A DNA stretch of 64,000 bases from a virus. A model generated the notes under the pieces. It searched no databases and was not told the origin of the DNA. It was given only the letters and a program-made list of their open reading frames with translations. The position numbers were made by a program, and so were the translations under genes. The DNA is taken from positions 1 through 64,000 of the IMG/VR virus record IMGVR_UViG_3300005293_000039; one strand, given 5' to 3'. This document shows positions 2,169 through 26,388 of the stretch, piece by piece; the first letter of the stretch is position 1; the number at the start of each line of letters is the position of its first letter.

Positions 2169-3166
2169 GCGGTTGCGAATAGCGCGTCTGGTGGTGTCTC
2201 TTTTTCTGCCCGTTCAAGATTTGCCACGGCCTGTTTGTAGTAACTCTCTTTCAACTCTATACCGATGAAGCGTCGACCTTTTTGAATAGACACATAGCCT
2301 TCACTACCGATTCCCGCGAACGGACTCAGTACCGTATCGTTCGGGTTGGTCCATAGCTCAACCGCTCTGTCGATGACGTCTAACTGTAAGGGGCAGATGT
2401 GGCGCTCGTCTCGTTGCTCTCGCGCGGCTTGGACGTTGAGCGTCCGGGTTTGTCGAATATCCATCCACACGGGCGAGGCGTAGCGCCGCCACACTTGATG
2501 TGAATAAACAGGATCGTCCGCCGTTGTTGCGGTGTAACTCTCAATATCGACGCTTCTTACTTTTGGCTTTCCCTTACGCGCCTTTGGTTCATCGTCGCCA
2601 ATGAACTCTGTAAATCCATCTGGTCTTGAAATCGGTTCTGGGTTGATACCAGGCTTGCGCATCGTCACGAGGTAGTCAGGTAGCCCCTGCCGACACATCG
2701 CGCTATCCTTCGTAACTTGCTTGTGCATCAAGCCCAGCGCCTTTGTTCGTGTCGCCTCAATCAACGGGTCTTTCCAGATGACTACCTTTGAGTGATAAAT
2801 GAATCCCGCCGATTCAAAGATTTCTCGCAGTTGCGCAGGGAAGTCTTTCAGCCCTATGAATCCATCGCGCTCTTTCATGGCCGGAATATCCATGCAGTGA
2901 AATGAAACCAACCGCCCCGGCATGATTACTCGGTACAGCTCGCTAACGATGAACTTGAAGTGCTCGTAAAACTCTCGATCGGTTCGCGCATTTCCAAGAT
3001 CACGCTCGCTTGCTGAATAGGTATAGAGCGAGGCGAACGGCGGCGAGAAAATAGAGTAGTGAATGGAGTCGGACGGAATACCGTGTAGCGCCTCGCAGGA
3101 GTCTCCAAGATACATGGCCCAGCCTTCTCCGAATCTCTGATCGATTATGTTCATGCGTTTATCCAT
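2165..3166 (-). CDS. DNA methyltransferase (N4-C/N6-A, beta class)
   Basis: SPPF catalytic motif, HICPLQLD, VLSPFAGIGSEG SAM-binding motif, GIELKESY; real start may be 3154. Confidence 0.92.
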   Translation of the reverse strand: MDKRMNIIDQRFGEGWAMYLGDSCEALHGIPSDSIHYSIFSPPFASLYTYSASERDLGNARTDREFYEHFKFIVSELYRVIMPGRLVSFHCMDIPAMKERDGFIGLKDFPAQLREIFESAGFIYHSKVVIWKDPLIEATRTKALGLMHKQVTKDSAMCRQGLPDYLVTMRKPGINPEPISRPDGFTEFIGDDEPKARKGKPKVRSVDIESYTATTADDPVYSHQVWRRYASPVWMDIRQTRTLNVQAAREQRDERHICPLQLDVIDRAVELWTNPNDTVLSPFAGIGSEGYVSIQKGRRFIGIELKESYYKQAVANLERAEKETPPDALFATA

Positions 3167-5934: not shown

Positions 5935-6402
5935 CGCTTAGGTGGCTCGGTTGACGGACGTAGACCTTCCCTCTAAGGTCTACCGTCTCACCGCCCAGTA
6001 TGGCTTCGGCGTTTCAACGTACAGGTTCCTCTTGCGGATTAGCTGCCTTCTTGAAATGAGCAGCCGGGCCAATTAGCGTGCTGGCAAGAGCGCAGGGGAT
6101 GAACTTGTCAGCCTAAAATGCGACCCCGTTCCCAACGTCGGCTTATTTGTATGTTGGCTTCGTGACAAGTATTCGTCCTTCATATGCTGTAAGCGCTTCC
6201 CTCAACACGGGCACTCGTGAGACAATCTCTGCAATTCAAGCGAGTACCAGAAGGGCTGTAACTGTGAGACTTCGGCGTCAATAGTTACGGCCCTTGCTCT
6301 TTGTGAATTCTGCGCGCCAGAGGTGGCTGGATTCTTTTGTTACCAGCGTCCTTTGGGATTCCACCCCAATGCTCTGCGGACTGAGCTACACCCCTAACGC
6401 GC
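5935..6402. ncRNA. Highly structured non-coding element (RNA or ssDNA), function unknown
   Basis: Stems 5960-5968/5975-5983, 6029-6035/6084-6090, 6103-6110/6163-6170, 6251-6265/6281-6295; no credible ORF. Confidence 0.6.
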
Positions 6403-6555
6403 AAAAGAAAAGCGACTCAAATAAGCCGCGCTCGCGGTTTGGCCCTATTCACCCCTGCAAGCAGATAACAGAGACGAACGTTGCGAAAACGCGACTTATT
6501 GGAATCGCCATCTGCTTGAATCGGGCCGGGGCCAACCGGCATTCTCAAAGAACAA
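6403..6555 (-). promoter_or_regulatory. Attenuator-like leader with competing helices, U-tract and boxA-like site
   Basis: 6490-6508 pairs with 6412-6430 followed by UUUUCUUUU; crossing helix 6510-6527 with 6441-6466; TTGTTCTTTGAGAA at 6555-6542. Confidence 0.55.
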
Positions 6556-6681
6556 CCAACCAATAACACAACTCGAGAATTTAAGTTTTGCATCGACTCC
6601 GTTTCACACTTCTACTGTGTCCCACCTGTTCTAATCCCCTGCTTGAAAATTCATTACCCTGAGTTCGGTAGGTTTTGAGAT

Positions 6682-7054: not shown

Positions 7055-7504
7055 TCAATCTCCTGCGCTTGCTGCGTGGGCTGCATTCGTAACATCTTCC
7101 AGCGGCGTCTCTGAACTCGGAATGGATGACGCGTTCTCTGACTTCTGTTTTGATTTGCGCGGCGCACGCGCTACAGACTTTGGGGGTTCAAAGTCATGCG
7201 AGTTGATGTACGTTCGATCATGATCTGACGCATCGGCGACTTGCCCGCAGATGCCGCACTTCGCTGCCTTGTCTGGAGTAGGTTCTTTCTGCGCCGGCGG
7301 GCTTGCAGATGGTTTCTCAGCCTTCTTGCGAGGCGTAGGTGTCAGTTCTCTTGTTAGCGCGTCGTGCGCCTGTTGTGCAGCCTCAGCCACGGCTTTAGCA
7401 GTGTTCAACTGCGATTGGGCCAATCGTTCGCGCATAAGCGCCGCCTCTAACCGCATCGCGGAGTCATTCAGAATTCGATCCGCTTTAGTGTTTCGTCGTG
7501 CCAC
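7055..7504 (-). CDS. Hypothetical protein, coiled coil plus CxxC-H-H zinc site
   Basis: GTG at 7504 with GAGG RBS directly after upstream stop; CGICG...H...H. Confidence 0.6.
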   Translation of the reverse strand: MARRNTKADRILNDSAMRLEAALMRERLAQSQLNTAKAVAEAAQQAHDALTRELTPTPRKKAEKPSASPPAQKEPTPDKAAKCGICGQVADASDHDRTYINSHDFEPPKSVARAPRKSKQKSENASSIPSSETPLEDVTNAAHAASAGD

Positions 7505-7505
7505 G

Positions 7506-7775
7506 CTAGTCCTCAACTTTCTCGTAAGTCGCTTCAAAGATGTCGGGCTTGCACGGATAAAACTCGCCTTTGACACCCTTGATAATCCAGTCACCCGGCT
7601 GAGCGGTCATCACACCTTCCAGCGTGTGAATCGCCAACGATTCGTCACGTTCGGATGTGTAATCAGCAAAGCCGACTTCTGCGCACCATTCAAAGAACGC
7701 ATCAAGATGATCGTCGCCGCTTGGCGGCAATCGAAAAGCGTCAATAACAACCGGCTTCTTTTTGAACTTCGGCAT
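7506..7775 (-). CDS. Conserved phage protein (PGDYG-like)
   Basis: KKKPVVIDA...TLEG...PGDWIIKGVKGEFYPCKPDIFEATYE. Confidence 0.8.
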   Translation of the reverse strand: MPKFKKKPVVIDAFRLPPSGDDHLDAFFEWCAEVGFADYTSERDESLAIHTLEGVMTAQPGDWIIKGVKGEFYPCKPDIFEATYEKVED

Positions 7776-8707: not shown

Positions 8708-9044
8708 TCGCGGCCTCCTTTGTCATACCGACAACGTTGTCGTTGAATGTCATCTGCCGCGTATCGCGTTCGGTTGCGACTGCTCTGCCTGCGTGTCGTC
8801 CAATGTAGATCGCCGTACCGACTGCGCGGCTCGGCGCGAGTTTTGATTTGACTTCGATCATTGTGTTTGCGAATGAGCGATCCTCATCCGGCTTGACGGT
8901 AACGGTGAGCGTTACAGACCGCGCCGCCGTGGGTTTAGTGTTCGGATCGAGAATGTTTTCCAACACTCGATTCAGTTCGTCCTCAAACTTCTCAATCGCT
9001 GCTCCTTGGCCCAGCGTATCGAGACTTACAAATTGTTCGCTCAT
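8700..9044 (-). CDS. Conserved phage protein (often labelled replication terminator protein)
   Basis: GAAIEKFEDELNRVLENILDPNT...RSVTLTVTVKP...VKSKLAP. Confidence 0.7.
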   Translation of the reverse strand: MSEQFVSLDTLGQGAAIEKFEDELNRVLENILDPNTKPTAARSVTLTVTVKPDEDRSFANTMIEVKSKLAPSRAVGTAIYIGRHAGRAVATERDTRQMTFNDNVVGMTKEAANV

Positions 9045-9216
9045 TCCTCTCCCTTCGCTTCAAAGCGGTAAAGTGTCTTACGATCAACAACCATTCATTC
9101 CTAAGTGCTTTGTCTTCATTTCGAATCTGGTAAGGGCGGCTTTGCCAGTTAAGACCAACAGATACCTCCGACATTTTTTAAGTGCATCGGGTGGGCCTGT
9201 TAGCCGCCCTAATTCG

Positions 9217-10005
9217 TTCCTGCGGGCCGGATTCCCACCCGGCTCCCGATCTACTATCTGGTCGGCATCGTTTTATCCACGGTTTGTGATGTCCGTTGCA
9301 TACTGCTGCCCCTACCAGCGGGCCATGCCGCCTCTTACCCCGGCGCTGGTACGCCGCCGCAGGAAATTCACATTAGCCTTGAGCCGCCCTCCGCAACGTA
9401 GTGCTTGATCCGATTCAGCGGCACCTTGAACGTCCGGCCTTTCGCCTTCGGATGAGACTAGGCGACTCAAGATTGGCTGCGCGGGCCGATGGGATTCACA
9501 CCCATGTTGATGCGGCTTCTGACCGGCTTATTGATTCCGTTGTAGCGGCCCCGGCCTGACGTACCCGCGCAAACTTTCAAAAATCAATCGCTGTCTCTCC
9601 AGCGTGTCACACAACTTGTCAAGGCCAGTCTCGGTTTCCAGAACGGGATCTCACCGCTCGCCCGACTTGGTGATCTTGCTCATGAGGCAGTGTGTCGCCC
9701 GACCCGCTTGCGTTGCGGTAGCACCTCTGCGACGCCGCGCTATCATTAGCACCGATGTTTCGTTGTCATCGGCAACGCCAGAACTAACGCCTCACTGGAA
9801 GCCCGCAGTCACGACTGGAACAGTCGCCAGCATGTTGCCCGTTGGTCTGCGGCACCATGATTCGCCGCGCAACGCGACGAAACGCAAAACTTTTCAAACA
9901 ACATCTCCAGTGGGTTTTCTCTCGCGATCCTCACACCGCAGACTCTGTTCTCATAGAGTGCTGACCTATGCTTTTCTGAGTCCATAAGAGAAGCCTCACC
10001 GGAGA
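9217..10005 (-). ncRNA. Tandem array of about five structured small RNAs, two with tRNA-like acceptor stem and T-arm
   Basis: Closing stems 9217/9365, 9378/9471, 9478/9571, 9904/10005 and a multibranch unit at about 9588-9885; AU-rich linkers. Confidence 0.6.
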
Positions 10006-10011
10006 ATCTTT

Positions 10012-10659
10012 TCAGAACGGAATATCGTTATCGTCGAACGGATCGTCGGGTGGCCCACCCATCGGCGGCCCATCCGCATGATCCTCAATAGCTGGTAGCG
10101 TCTTTGGCTTTGGCAACAAGATATTGCGGTTCTTCGTGTCGATGCAGATCGTTGCAAAGCACGCCTGTACCGCGACCGCATCGTCAATTTGCAAATTCGC
10201 CGTAACCAGGTTTGCCAATTCAGCACAACTCAACAGGTGGTCGGCGTAGGATTCACGATTCAGGGTGCCGTTTTGGGTCGGCGCGTGACTGTTCTGCGAA
10301 CCGTTGCCGTTACCGTTTGTTGACGCCGCTCCCCACTCCCATTTCGCACTCGAAGTAATGATCAACTTGTCATACGTTTTGTTTTGATATTCCTCGTGGG
10401 CTACCTTCAAGCCAGTTAGACCATGTTGCTTGGATTGGTTGGCGCGTATCGTTACAGTCTGCCCCACACGATCGGCAGGGAATTCACGCATCAATCCTTT
10501 AAGCTTCAGCTTCCCACCCCCCTTAACTTGGACGTCCTGAAAGCTCCACGGGCCGTTTTCACCTTCGCCGGATTTGAAGGCAAAGACTTTCTCGATCGTC
10601 ACCGTTACATCAGGCGGCGTGAATCCTTCGGGCATCTTCAACACTTCTGCTAGATCCAT
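10012..10659 (-). CDS. Putative single-stranded DNA-binding protein
   Basis: OB-fold-like beta-rich N-terminus, Gly/Asn linker, acidic tail DDPFDDNDIPF. Confidence 0.7.
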   Translation of the reverse strand: MDLAEVLKMPEGFTPPDVTVTIEKVFAFKSGEGENGPWSFQDVQVKGGGKLKLKGLMREFPADRVGQTVTIRANQSKQHGLTGLKVAHEEYQNKTYDKLIITSSAKWEWGAASTNGNGNGSQNSHAPTQNGTLNRESYADHLLSCAELANLVTANLQIDDAVAVQACFATICIDTKNRNILLPKPKTLPAIEDHADGPPMGGPPDDPFDDNDIPF

Positions 10660-11629
10660 TTTCTTGCTCCTTCAATTGTTTGTACTGATCGCACCACGGT
10701 GCCGCGAGACAGTAGCTTTCGCAACGCTTATTCACTCCCGGCCTGAATTGAATCTCATGATTTTTTACGTCGAAGATTTCTATGTGCGCTTGCGCCTCGG
10801 CCTCGGTAGCAAACAGTTTTGCCGCTTTCTTGTTTCCTTTTTTCGTGAGCGCATAAACGTCATCGGCCTTCCATCTTTCTTCATCCGTACATAAAGGAAG
10901 TGTCTTCTTCGCGCCCTCAAACTCAGCAATCCGAGCCGCAATGAACGCCTCTGTTTCGCTAGTCGGCCATACCGGAATCTCAAACTTCGCGACTTGATGC
11001 GGTGGATACTTCTCTGTCGATCCGACTAATGATTTTTTCCAATCGCGATAGAGCGCGATGTTCACGATCTCTTTGACTGAATAACCATTCTCCTCGAGTA
11101 GTAGGCGGTTGATGTTCCCCTGTGCGGCCCACTCCGGTTTCAATGACAGGTAAGACACGTACACAGATTTCTCTTTCCAGTCGTAAAGAATCCCGAGTCG
11201 CTTGTCGTAAAGATCAATTTGCCCACCAATCGTTTTACGAAAGCGCTTGATGTAGAACCTTTCTTCGGCGAGGTATTCGTACTGCTCACAAAATTCCGCC
11301 GCGCGCTCAAGTACGACATGCTTGGATTGTCCTGATAGCGAATAGATCCGATCCGTAACGTCTTCAGTTATTTCCATCCAATGTCGACGTTTAAGTGCCC
11401 ACTGCCGCGCGGGAGTTCCCGCCAATTGCGACGTTGTGTAGTCGGAGCGGCCCGGCGAATACTTGTCGTTCATTACCGCTTGAACCAGAGGCTCAGGCAG
11501 GTTGTAAATATTCGTGATGCGCGGCTTACGGGTCGGCGGCTCAATACTTTCCGAAACAGAAGCGCCCCCCGCTTCCATTTCTTCGCCGTACTCGAATTGA
11601 GATTCGTATTCGCGTTTTGCGAAACTCAT
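10610..11629 (-). CDS. PD-(D/E)XK recombination exonuclease (Cas4-like)
   Basis: H..LE, E.RF, GQIDL...DWK, Q.NI, C-terminal RCESYCLAAPWC. Confidence 0.8.
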   Translation of the reverse strand: MSFAKREYESQFEYGEEMEAGGASVSESIEPPTRKPRITNIYNLPEPLVQAVMNDKYSPGRSDYTTSQLAGTPARQWALKRRHWMEITEDVTDRIYSLSGQSKHVVLERAAEFCEQYEYLAEERFYIKRFRKTIGGQIDLYDKRLGILYDWKEKSVYVSYLSLKPEWAAQGNINRLLLEENGYSVKEIVNIALYRDWKKSLVGSTEKYPPHQVAKFEIPVWPTSETEAFIAARIAEFEGAKKTLPLCTDEERWKADDVYALTKKGNKKAAKLFATEAEAQAHIEIFDVKNHEIQFRPGVNKRCESYCLAAPWCDQYKQLKEQENGSSRSVEDARRIHAA

Positions 11630-26028: not shown

Positions 26029-26178
26029 TGAAATCTCAACTATCCAAAAGAGCTGATCTCTACCAAATTAAAAGATTTGGATCTCTTAAACCTCATAAAC
26101 CTTTAACAGAAGCTATTGCCAGAACTGTACGTAAGCATTTGACGGGCGATAAGAAGCAGGGATAGACTCTGCGGCACC

Positions 26179-26388
26179 ATGATTCCTCTGCTTGGAATTT
26201 TACTCTCCATCTACCTCGCGTTTAAGGGGATTGAGATCTTTCAGATTGCCTATTCCAACAAAGATGCTCCGTTTGGATCATTGGTTTTAGGTGCTGTAAT
26301 GATGGTGGTCGGCATCCTCATCGGACTCATATTTGGGGTGCTGTTTATGGATAGCGGGACTTCCATGCCTAGTATCCCGAGACTTTAA
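26179..26388 (+). CDS. Two-TM membrane protein (moron)
   Basis: Two hydrophobic segments; upstream TTGACG-18 nt-TAGACT promoter. Confidence 0.7.
   Translation: MIPLLGILLSIYLAFKGIEIFQIAYSNKDAPFGSLVLGAVMMVVGILIGLIFGVLFMDSGTSMPSIPRL

What the first reader, a model, noticed from the sequence alone, without database searches (positions are those of the whole stretch)
9217..10005. Tandem array of tRNA-like and other structured RNAs in the early transcript
Seen: about five units with their own closing stems, separated by short linkers, most of them AU-rich. Unit 9478-9571 has an 8-bp acceptor-like stem and a T-arm ATGGG-TGTGAAT-CCCAT (5 bp, 7-nt loop). Unit 9217-9365 has a 9-bp closing stem and GCCGG-GTGGGAAT-CCGGC directly before the 3' acceptor strand. 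Neither has a canonical D or anticodon arm or encoded CCA. Inference: a polycistronic RNA cassette cut by RNase P/E into tRNA mimics that may act as decoys for anticodon nucleases or other defence proteins, or as sRNA scaffolds.
Basis: partly seen in the sequence, partly recalled or inferred. Interest (0 to 1): 0.72.

Follow-up and report, generated by a model that had tools for sequence, protein, structure and literature searches.

The report
Conserved array of stem-closed phage RNAs
A 970-base gene-free stretch in the early operon of a soil phage is a string of separately folded RNA modules whose closing helices and linkers recur in other soil phages; it matches no known RNA family and is not a set of tRNAs.

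Summary
The stretch 9045-10011 has no coding signal. Within this window alone the structure is barely above chance: stem density gives p about 0.07, and fold z-scores match control segments. Comparison with other phages settles it. Five other soil-phage contigs (L164, L167, L170, L171, L179) carry the same linker (UUUGAAAAGUUUG) and the same closing helices around unrelated interiors. In every case the array lies between recombination and replication genes. The helices are kept by compensatory and G.U changes (11 G.U, 0 A.C), so the structure belongs to the sense transcript.

Best reading: a polycistronic array of exchangeable, stem-clamped non-coding RNA cassettes, probably released by cuts in the A/U-rich linkers. 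That release step is inferred, not shown.

The units are not tRNAs or tmRNAs by covariance model, ARAGORN or anatomy. One relative does have a near-canonical T arm at the same place in unit 5. The decoy function remains untested.

Seen in passing: a genuine atypical tRNA at 6318-6395 (-), inside a second ORF-free stretch that is about 640 nt long and conserved in L169. The scan had noted part of this array before on this genome (e1-6098731), but not on other DNA.

The parts
9905..10005 (-). u1: three-way-junction module starting 6 nt after the stop of the SSB-like gene
   Evidence: The MFE equals the centroid, with z -3.08. The first 33 codons of an ORF read across it are 31/33 identical in one ENA relative (P0122), after which the sequences diverge.
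9888..9904 (-). linker 1, AUGUUGUUUGAAAAGUU
   Evidence: It is a direct repeat of linker 2. The same UUUGAAAAGUUUG linker occurs in L164, L167, L170, L171 and L179.
9589..9887 (-). u2: about 300 nt. It comprises u2a (closing UUGCGUU/AACGCAA, 9887-9881 with 9714-9708) and u2b, which ends in a terminator-like hairpin at 9604-9589.
   Evidence: Stems are and the terminator-like site. Fold z is +0.98, so there is no excess stability. The part 9582-9772 occurs in an unrelated soil run, X3, with a 14-nt net deletion. The module is absent from the P0122 relative. It contains the 18-nt repeat at 9846-9863.
9574..9588 (-). linker 2, UGAUUUUUGAAAGUU
9475..9573 (-). u3: closing helix UUUGCGCGGG/CCCGCGCA(GC) around a 78-nt interior with the hairpin AUGGG-UGUGAAU-CCCAU.
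   Evidence: Homologues occur in L170, L164, L167, L171 and L179, with interiors of 78-140 nt that do not align. 96.7% of cells pair against 90.4% in shuffles (6/500), and two pairs show changes on both sides.
9378..9471 (-). u4: closing helix CUUGAGUCGCC/GGCGGCUCAAG (11 bp, one G.U)
   Evidence: Homologues occur in L167 and L179. 100% of cells pair, against 24-45% when the partner is slid, and three pairs switch between G.U and Watson-Crick.
9217..9365 (-). u5: 9-bp closing helix UUCCUGCGG/CCGCAGGAA with a hairpin (9243-9226) abutting the 3' strand.
   Evidence: L164:2517-2643 has the identical closing helix. Its hairpin sits at the same place with two compensatory pairs and a near-canonical T loop. 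L171:721-842 is a possible third member, with three changes on both sides and one mismatch. Fold z is -2.1 to -2.3.
   Evidence: z -2.25 to -3.4. An (A/U)GGGCGG start to the last module is also seen by eye in L169 and L170.
9045..9132 (-). leader and ribosome-binding site (GGGAGAGGA) of the phrog_997 gene

Best explanation
Window 9045-10011 is a non-coding part of the leftward early operon of a 74.5-kb soil phage. It is made of seven tandem RNA modules. Each module is shut by its own long-range helix of 7-11 bp. They are joined by short A/U-rich linkers with a conserved sequence (UUUGAAA(A)GUUUG, AAUCUUGA). The same linkers and closing helices enclose unrelated interiors in other soil phages. 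There the array always sits between the recombination genes and the replication genes, and modules can be present, absent or replaced by a protein gene. I read it as a polycistronic array of exchangeable, stem-clamped small non-coding RNA cassettes. Shown here: it is non-coding, the linkers and helices are conserved, the covariation points to the sense strand, and it matches no known family. Inferred: the array is co-transcribed with the early genes, endonuclease cuts in the linkers (an RNase E-type sequence context) release the modules, and the closing helices protect their ends. The same operon must be processed in any case, because a true tRNA gene lies in a similar ORF-free stretch 3 kb downstream. 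What the released RNAs do is unknown. They are not tRNAs.
For: Non-coding. Every ORF in the gap scores at or below the 5th percentile of real coding windows of this genome, and no frame shows a coding signal between 10025 and 9080, while both flanking genes do. The 127-aa plus-strand ORF has no homologue and would be broken by a 14-nt net deletion in run X3. The only homologue of the 58-aa ORF (P0122) matches two window segments that lie in different frames.

Conservation. The linker plus closing helix of u3 occurs in L164, L167, L170, L171 and L179. L179 was found with an exact 17-nt pattern.

Covariation. In u3, 96.7% of cells pair against 90.4 +/- 2.3 in shuffles (6/500). The covariation score is 0.287 against 0.160 (5/500), and slid controls give 30-53%. 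In u4, 100% of cells pair against 24-45% when slid. In u5, the closing helix is identical in L164 and the adjacent hairpin has two compensatory pairs.

Strand. There are 11 G.U cells and no A.C cell in the closing helices.

Context. L179 has non-homologous flanks (AAA_24 recombinase-type gene, then the array, then DUF1376, helicase and Toprim genes) but the same functional position. L162, L163 and L166 have an initiator and a primase-helicase downstream of the SSB-like gene.

Cassette behaviour. The P0122 relative lacks about 400 nt (u2-u3). L167 has an HTH gene where L164 and L171 have u5, between the same boundary sequences.

Need for processing. The tRNA at 6318-6395 scores 45.9 bits.

No known family. 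There is no Rfam match in the window or in the relatives.
Against: There are no expression or end-mapping data, and no RNA run holding the stretch was listed. Only 3-6 homologues exist per module. Six of the ten u3 pairs never vary, and two of the homologues (L164, L167) are close to each other. The interiors are not conserved, and the fold energies of the named units are no better than control segments. Selection may therefore act only on stems and linkers. That would fit cis-acting punctuation or recombination boundaries as well as released RNAs. Cleavage in the linkers is pure inference. An ORF of 58 aa with a good ribosome-binding site overlaps u1, and its first 33 codons score ambiguously (0.12 bits per codon).
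Confidence: 0.5

Rival explanations
1. Cis-acting punctuation of the early operon. The hairpins followed by U-rich linkers act as terminators, attenuators, processing sites or stability elements. They gate or uncouple expression of the replication genes from the recombination genes. No free RNA has a function of its own.
For: Only stems and linkers are conserved and the interiors are free to vary. There is a terminator-like hairpin plus U run at 9604-9589. Both linkers follow a helix and are U-rich. Relatives show, by eye, a long hairpin followed by CUUUUCUUU just upstream of the initiator gene. The position between two gene blocks is constant.
Against: Modules move between phages with non-homologous flanking genes and are gained or lost individually, which is gene-like behaviour. 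Closing helices spanning 90-170 nt are not terminator-shaped. The linker U runs are interrupted (UUUGAAAAG).
Confidence: 0.22
2. The units are tRNA mimics cut out by RNase P/E, and they act as decoys for anticodon nucleases or other tRNA-directed defences.
For: u5 and its L164 homologue place a 5-bp hairpin directly before the 3' strand of the closing helix, and the L164 loop (UUUCGACU) is one base from a canonical T loop. T-loop-like GAAU-CC hairpins are enriched, with 5 observed against 1.6 +/- 1.3 expected, and three of them lie in the two ORF-free gaps. A real but atypical tRNA lies in the same operon. Phage tRNAs are known to counter tRNA-targeting defences (PMC10264068, PMC11555353).
Against: No tRNA, tRNA-Sec or tmRNA model hit at E up to 10 in windows of 170-280 nt, although the same mode found the real tRNA at 45.9 bits. 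There is no D arm or anticodon arm. Closing helices are 8-11 bp, and in u3 a 3-nt spacer separates the hairpin from the 3' strand. The u3 hairpin is absent from all five homologues. The window's u5 hairpin is better read as a 7-bp stem with a GNRA tetraloop. No CCA is conserved.
Confidence: 0.1
3. A DNA-level element. The hairpins form in single-stranded DNA as priming or origin signals for the adjacent replication module, or the conserved linkers are simply recombination boundaries between exchangeable cassettes with otherwise neutral filler.
For: The array always lies next to replication genes. In L167 a protein-coding cassette replaces an RNA module between the same boundary sequences. The interiors are unconstrained.
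Against: There are no iterons or A/T-rich unwinding region, and GC is 55%, above the genome mean. Eleven G.U cells against no A.C cell is the usual signature of RNA. G.T pairs are weaker in DNA, though they are not excluded. Neutral filler would not keep long-range helices through compensatory change.
Confidence: 0.1
4. Part of the stretch encodes small proteins, notably the 58-aa ORF 9809-9985 (-), which has GAGG 8 nt upstream of its ATG.
For: The ORF was called as a gene in the record and has one homologue, with 31 of the first 33 residues identical. The first 33 codons score 0.12 bits per codon, which is the lower quartile of real genes.
Against: The whole ORF scores -0.02 per codon, at the 5th percentile of coding windows. 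Identity stops abruptly after residue 33, and the relative's tail matches window DNA in another frame. Only one homologue turned up in full searches of two very large protein collections. The start codon and ribosome-binding site are buried in the u1 helices.
Confidence: 0.05

Closest known systems
Phage tRNA gene clusters with co-transcribed small stable RNAs (for example the T4 tRNA region with its species 1 and 2 RNAs; from my own knowledge, not checked here)
   Same: Tandem small structured RNA genes in an early transcript. Short spacers separate them, each unit is closed by a terminal helix, and units are gained and lost between relatives. A real tRNA lies in the same operon.
   Different: The units are 78-300 nt, have no cloverleaf and match no tRNA model. 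The conserved parts are the linkers and closing helices, not the interiors.
tRNA-like domain of tmRNA, or the acceptor/T-arm minihelix
   Same: In u5 the 5' and 3' ends pair, a 5-bp hairpin abuts the 3' strand, and the rest of the RNA is inserted between them. The L164 homologue has a near-canonical T loop.
   Different: ARAGORN finds no tmRNA. There is no G3.U70 and no CCA, the closing helix is 9 bp, and the window's own loop is not a T loop.
Operon-embedded phage or prophage regulatory RNAs released by processing (P1/P7 c4, P4 CI, DicF of the Qin prophage; from my own knowledge)
   Same: Small RNAs excised from a longer early or immunity transcript. One window segment (9863-9846) is perfectly antisense to the translation start of a phage gene.
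   Different: There was no Rfam hit at all, and Rfam holds a C4 family to my knowledge. The antisense match is a single case, lies in a module absent from a relative, and has no counterpart in L179. These known RNAs are single genes, not arrays.
Intra-operon terminators and antitermination RNA sites of lambdoid phages (tL terminators, nut and put sites; from my own knowledge)
   Same: Hairpin elements inside the leftward early operon, downstream of recombination genes.
   Different: Those are single short hairpins. Here the helices span 90-170 nt, occur as a modular array and move between phages with unrelated flanks.
Large ornate phage-associated RNAs found beside tRNA genes (GOLLD, ROOL; from my own knowledge)
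   Same: Long ORF-free, structured and conserved RNA regions in phage genomes associated with a tRNA. This applies chiefly to the second gap, 5948-6588.
   Different: No Rfam hit of any kind, so nothing to the GOLLD or ROOL models that Rfam holds to my knowledge. The array studied here is modular, with non-conserved interiors, and is not one large conserved fold.

Membership tests
tRNA (Rfam RF00005) | Covariance-model score at or above the gathering threshold (29 bits) | tested here: not met
   No hit at E up to 10 in 8900-10150, 9440-9610 or 9120-9400, nor in L164 2232-2760. The same mode gave 45.9 bits for 6318-6395.
tRNA (Rfam RF00005) | Cloverleaf with D arm and anticodon arm, called by ARAGORN | tested here: not met
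   ARAGORN finds 0 genes. At a relaxed threshold it gives 41 scattered calls genome-wide, which is noise. The folds show no cloverleaf.
tRNA (Rfam RF00005) | 7-bp acceptor stem stacked on a 5-bp T stem with a UUCRANY loop, then discriminator and CCA | tested here: not met
   The stems are 8 and 9 bp. u3 has a 3-nt spacer. The loops are UGUGAAU and GUGGGAAU, and the latter folds as a GNRA-capped 7-bp stem. GCCA follows the u3 stem only in the window, not in the homologues. L164 u5 has UUUCGACU, which is near-canonical.
tmRNA | tRNA-like domain with G3.U70, a canonical T arm, CCA and a tag reading frame | tested here: not met
   ARAGORN finds no tmRNA, and the permissive Rfam scans returned no tmRNA-like hit. 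Position 3 of both closing helices is a Watson-Crick pair.
Any Rfam 15 family | Match to one of 4227 covariance models | tested here: not met
   Only chance-level hits (E 0.5-10) in the window stretch and in the arrays of L164, L179 and L171.
Intrinsic terminator | G+C-rich hairpin directly followed by a U run | tested here: inconclusive
   There is one consensus match on the minus strand, at 9604-9589, with a 5-bp stem and AUUGAUUUUU. The region has 6 sites against 3.0 +/- 1.7 in shuffles. The U runs are interrupted.
Trans-acting antisense RNA (c4/DicF type) | Extended complementarity to the translation start of a target gene, conserved in relatives | tested here: inconclusive
   There is an 18-nt perfect match to -11..+7 of the 69-aa gene at 26179. 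It is the longest repeat in the genome, with about 0.08 expected. The segment is absent from the P0122 relative, and the L179 array has no second match in its own genome.
Type III toxin-antitoxin RNA (ToxI-like) | Tandem near-identical short repeats next to a toxin gene | tested here: not met
   There are no tandem repeat families, only two 21-nt linker copies 317 nt apart.
Replication origin | Iterons and an A/T-rich unwinding region | tested here: not met
   There are no iterons, and GC is 0.554 against about 0.51 for the genome.

The most novel reading that the evidence does not exclude
These arrays are a new class of phage accessory element, which could be called RNA morons. They would be exchangeable cassettes of stem-clamped small RNAs, bounded by a shared linker that serves both as processing site and as recombination boundary, and swapped freely with each other and with protein cassettes. 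Their variable interiors would carry phage-specific functions such as tRNA-like minihelix decoys against tRNA-directed defences (u5 and its L164 homologue) or antisense control of phage genes (the 18-nt match in u2). Together with the neighbouring conserved RNA of about 640 nt that embeds a tRNA, they would form an RNA-based early programme in a group of soil phages.
Probability: 0.15. Interest if true: 0.8.

Novelty: new variant of a known kind. Interest (0 to 1): 0.6.

Why it matters
Phage genomes are compact, so a kilobase of conserved, structured, non-coding RNA in the early operon is probably doing something. It matches no described RNA family. Its architecture is unusual: the linkers and closing helices are conserved while the interiors are freely replaced, and modules are swapped between phages with unrelated flanking genes. 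If the modules are released as stable RNAs, they would be a new source of phage small RNAs. These could be counter-defence decoys, regulators or scaffolds, in soil phages that cannot yet be cultured. The linker would be a handle for finding more of them. The nearby atypical tRNA and the conserved RNA of about 640 nt around it suggest that this phage group invests heavily in RNA-level functions.

Tried and rejected
**Similarity searches that missed the homology**
- blastn and nhmmer with default scoring found nothing against 160+ related loci, the INPHARED phages and five related whole phage records. The homology is confined to boundaries of 15-30 nt and was first seen by eye.
- Sensitive blastn recovers only those boundaries, at E 0.06-9.
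- A 22-nt pattern from 9599-9626 had no match in viral contigs.
- Genome contigs held no relative of the SSB-like protein.

The closest relatives, with 75-93% SSB-like identity, could therefore not be fetched.
- No RNA holder was listed among the sequencing runs.
- X3 covers only 9582-9772. The missing cover elsewhere is not evidence.
- RNA duplex scoring of the gap against all translation starts was uninformative, because long loops inflate the energies.

**Ideas considered and dropped**
- A pseudogene of the initiator or primase genes that relatives carry at this position: there is no protein-level trace.
- Promoter readings of the linkers (TTGAAA as a -35 box): there is no -10 box at the right spacing, by eye. 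The one consensus promoter, at 9769-9742, loses its last T in X3.
- The antisense-guide idea as a general rule: the L179 array has no second match in its own genome.
- A replication origin: there are no iterons.
- Alternative genetic code: not pursued, because long ORFs elsewhere in the genome read normally.

Full report
**Setting.** The window is the first 64 kb of a 74,540-bp IMG/VR virus record with terminal repeats. It comes from a soil metagenome. The finding lies in a run of minus-strand genes:
- an exonuclease, phrog_2139, at 10610-11629;
- a 215-aa protein at 10012-10659 with no Pfam or PHROG hit, whose family ends in the SSB-type tail DDDIPF;
- 967 nt without a convincing ORF (9045-10011);
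- then phrog_997 and phrog_1029.

**Check of the observation.** ARAGORN and Rfam call nothing in the stretch. Taken alone, the structure is only weakly above chance:
- There are 17 perfect stems of at least 7 bp, against 10.8 +/- 2.8 in shuffles.
- The whole-gap z is about -1.9 on either strand.
Segments elsewhere in the genome chosen the same way, by a stem of at least 8 bp, average -1.65 +/- 0.92.
- The 300-nt middle part has no excess stability.
- GCCGG-GUGGGAAU-CCGGC folds best as a 7-bp stem with a GGGA tetraloop.

**The stretch is non-coding.**
- A codon model trained on this genome gives 0.2-0.3 bits per codon for the flanking genes. Every ORF in the gap scores about 0 or below, at or under the 5th percentile of true coding windows.
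- A sliding scan shows no coding frame from 10025 to 9080.
- The 127-aa plus-strand ORF has no homologue. A 14-nt net deletion in an independent soil run would break it.
- The 58-aa minus-strand ORF has one homologue, P0122. It is identical for 31 of the first 33 residues and then unrelated. Its tail matches window DNA 400 nt further on, in a different frame.
- That pattern shows conserved DNA segments and a relative that lacks about 400 nt (u2-u3). It does not show a conserved protein.
- No remnant of the neighbours' genes is detectable.

**Homologues.** Standard nucleotide searches found nothing. Reading the DNA downstream of the SSB-like gene in distant relatives (56-62% protein identity) showed the same punctuation:
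- The linker AUAUUUGAAAAGUUUGCGCGG opens a helix.
- The helix is closed 90-160 nt later by CGCGCA, followed by xxAAUCUU(U)GA.
- An exact 17-nt pattern from this linker retrieved one more genuine case, L179, among 12 hits.
- L179 has flanking genes that are not homologous to the window's but are functionally parallel: an AAA_24 recombinase-type gene, then about 1.7 kb without ORFs, then DUF1376, helicase and Toprim genes.
- In L162, L163 and L166 the SSB-like gene is followed by an initiator and a primase-helicase.
- The array therefore always sits between the recombination and replication blocks.

**Covariation.**
- u3 (six sequences, alignment A5): 96.7% of cells pair, against 90.4 +/- 2.3 in shuffles (6/500). 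The covariation score is 0.287 against 0.160 (5/500). Slid controls give 30-53%. Two pairs show changes on both sides and two more switch G-C to G.U. The interiors do not align.
- u4 (three sequences, A6): all cells pair, against 24-45% when slid, and three pairs switch between G.U and Watson-Crick.
- u5: L164 has the identical 9-bp closing helix and a hairpin at the same place with two compensatory pairs. L171 may be a third member, with three changes on both sides.
- A further module family is shared by L165 and L179 only. Its closing strands differ at several positions by eye, and both form a closed helix of 11-12 bp. The L179 helix was counted by script (10 Watson-Crick pairs and one G.U); the L165 helix was re-registered by hand after a register error.
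- In all the closing helices there are 11 G.U cells and no A.C cell. The structure therefore belongs to the strand that carries the genes, which is the early transcript.
- One substitution in run X3 (9672) turns a predicted G-C pair into G.U on that same strand.

**Anatomy in the window (minus strand).**
- u1: 10005-9905
- linker 1: 9904-9888
- u2: 9887-9589
- linker 2: 9588-9574
- u3: 9573-9475
- u4: 9471-9378
- u5: 9365-9217
- u6: 9210-9133
- leader of the next gene: 9132-9045

Modules behave as cassettes. The P0122 relative lacks u2-u3. L170 has only a first hairpin, u3 and a last module. L167 carries an HTH protein gene where L164 and L171 carry u5, between the same boundary sequences. Part of u2 occurs in an unrelated soil study.

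**Are the units tRNA-like?** No tRNA, tRNA-Sec or tmRNA model matches u3, u5 or the L164 array, even when windows of 170-530 nt are scanned in the permissive mode. That same mode found a real tRNA at 6318-6395 at 45.9 bits. The whole-window gathering scan, ARAGORN and the genome search had all missed that tRNA. The u3 hairpin is not kept in any homologue. The one point in favour is u5. There a 5-bp hairpin abuts the 3' strand in both the window and L164, and the L164 loop (UUUCGACU) is one base from a canonical T loop. Hairpins ending in GAAU-CC are also enriched, with 5 observed against 1.6 +/- 1.3. However, I defined that motif after seeing the hairpins.

**Mechanism.** Four things are shown: the region is non-coding, it is modular, its helices and linkers are conserved, and the helices form on the sense strand. 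I infer three further steps. The early transcript is cut in the A/U-rich linkers. The closing helices then clamp the ends of the released RNAs. The variable interiors carry functions specific to each phage. Cis-acting punctuation (termination or attenuation ahead of the replication genes) is the main rival, because only stems and linkers are constrained. A decoy role is possible but untested. Published work shows that phage tRNAs can counter tRNA-targeting defences (PMC10264068, PMC11555353).

**Verdict.** This is a real feature and a new family of modular structured RNAs of unknown function. The tRNA-mimic and decoy reading is not supported.

Noticed in passing
window 6318-6395 (-): A genuine but atypical tRNA gene: Rfam RF00005 at 45.9 bits, E 1.7e-8, and a cloverleaf as its MFE fold. 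Its acceptor stem has G3.U70, which is the alanine identity pair from my own knowledge. The anticodon loop is GUGGAAU (anticodon GGA), the T loop is 12 nt long, and no CCA is encoded. The whole-window Rfam gathering scan, ARAGORN and the genome search 'own' all missed it.
   Followed up: partly
window 5948-6588 (-); L169:3137-3733; L170 about 2390-3010: The second ORF-free stretch of the operon is one conserved element of about 640 nt. It is 64% identical to L169 (E 1e-37). Its fold z is -3.43. A consensus fold has 122 predicted pairs, of which 38 keep pairing through changes on both sides. L169 has a shorter tRNA-like piece with a canonical GGGUUCGACUCCC T arm where the window has its tRNA. 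This looks like a large structured RNA that embeds a tRNA.
   Followed up: partly
window 9846-9863 and 26168-26185: An 18-nt exact direct repeat, TCTGCGGCACCATGATTC, is the longest repeat in the genome apart from the terminal overlap (about 0.08 expected). The second copy spans -11..+7 of the start of a 69-aa two-transmembrane protein gene on the plus strand. A minus-strand RNA from u2 would therefore be perfectly antisense to that translation start. The segment is absent from the P0122 relative.
   Followed up: partly
window 10012-10659 (-): A 215-aa protein with no Pfam or PHROG hit but more than 130 homologues in metagenomes. The family ends in the SSB-type acidic tail DDDIPF and always follows the exonuclease gene. 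It is probably a novel single-strand-binding or annealing protein.
   Followed up: partly
L162:4701-7606, L163:4921-7615, L166:3018-5572, compared with window 9045-7961: Relatives carry a replication initiator (HTH_36/DnaD-like or DUF1376) and a primase-helicase downstream of the SSB-like gene. This phage has a phrog_997/phrog_1029 module instead, shared with Firmicutes phages such as Paenibacillus phage Dragolir. This is a module swap at the array.
   Followed up: partly
L167:5095-5424 compared with L164:2517-2643 and L171:721-842: An ORF that I read as an XRE-type HTH gene (by eye, not scanned) occupies in L167 the slot that holds RNA module u5 in L164 and L171. It lies between the same boundary sequences (CCGUCAGAA ... 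AGAUCAAGCAGGGCGCA), so protein and RNA cassettes are interchangeable there.
   Followed up: no
window 6401-6432 (-): A terminator-like hairpin followed by UUUUCUUUUGC lies directly upstream of the tRNA (weak ctRNA_p42d match). Similar CUUUUCUUU runs follow long hairpins just before the initiator genes of L162, L163, L166, L167 and L171.
   Followed up: no
window 7510-7596: Many unrelated soil contigs match this short piece at the start of the 179-aa gene 7055-7594. It is probably a widely conserved domain, which I did not identify.
   Followed up: no
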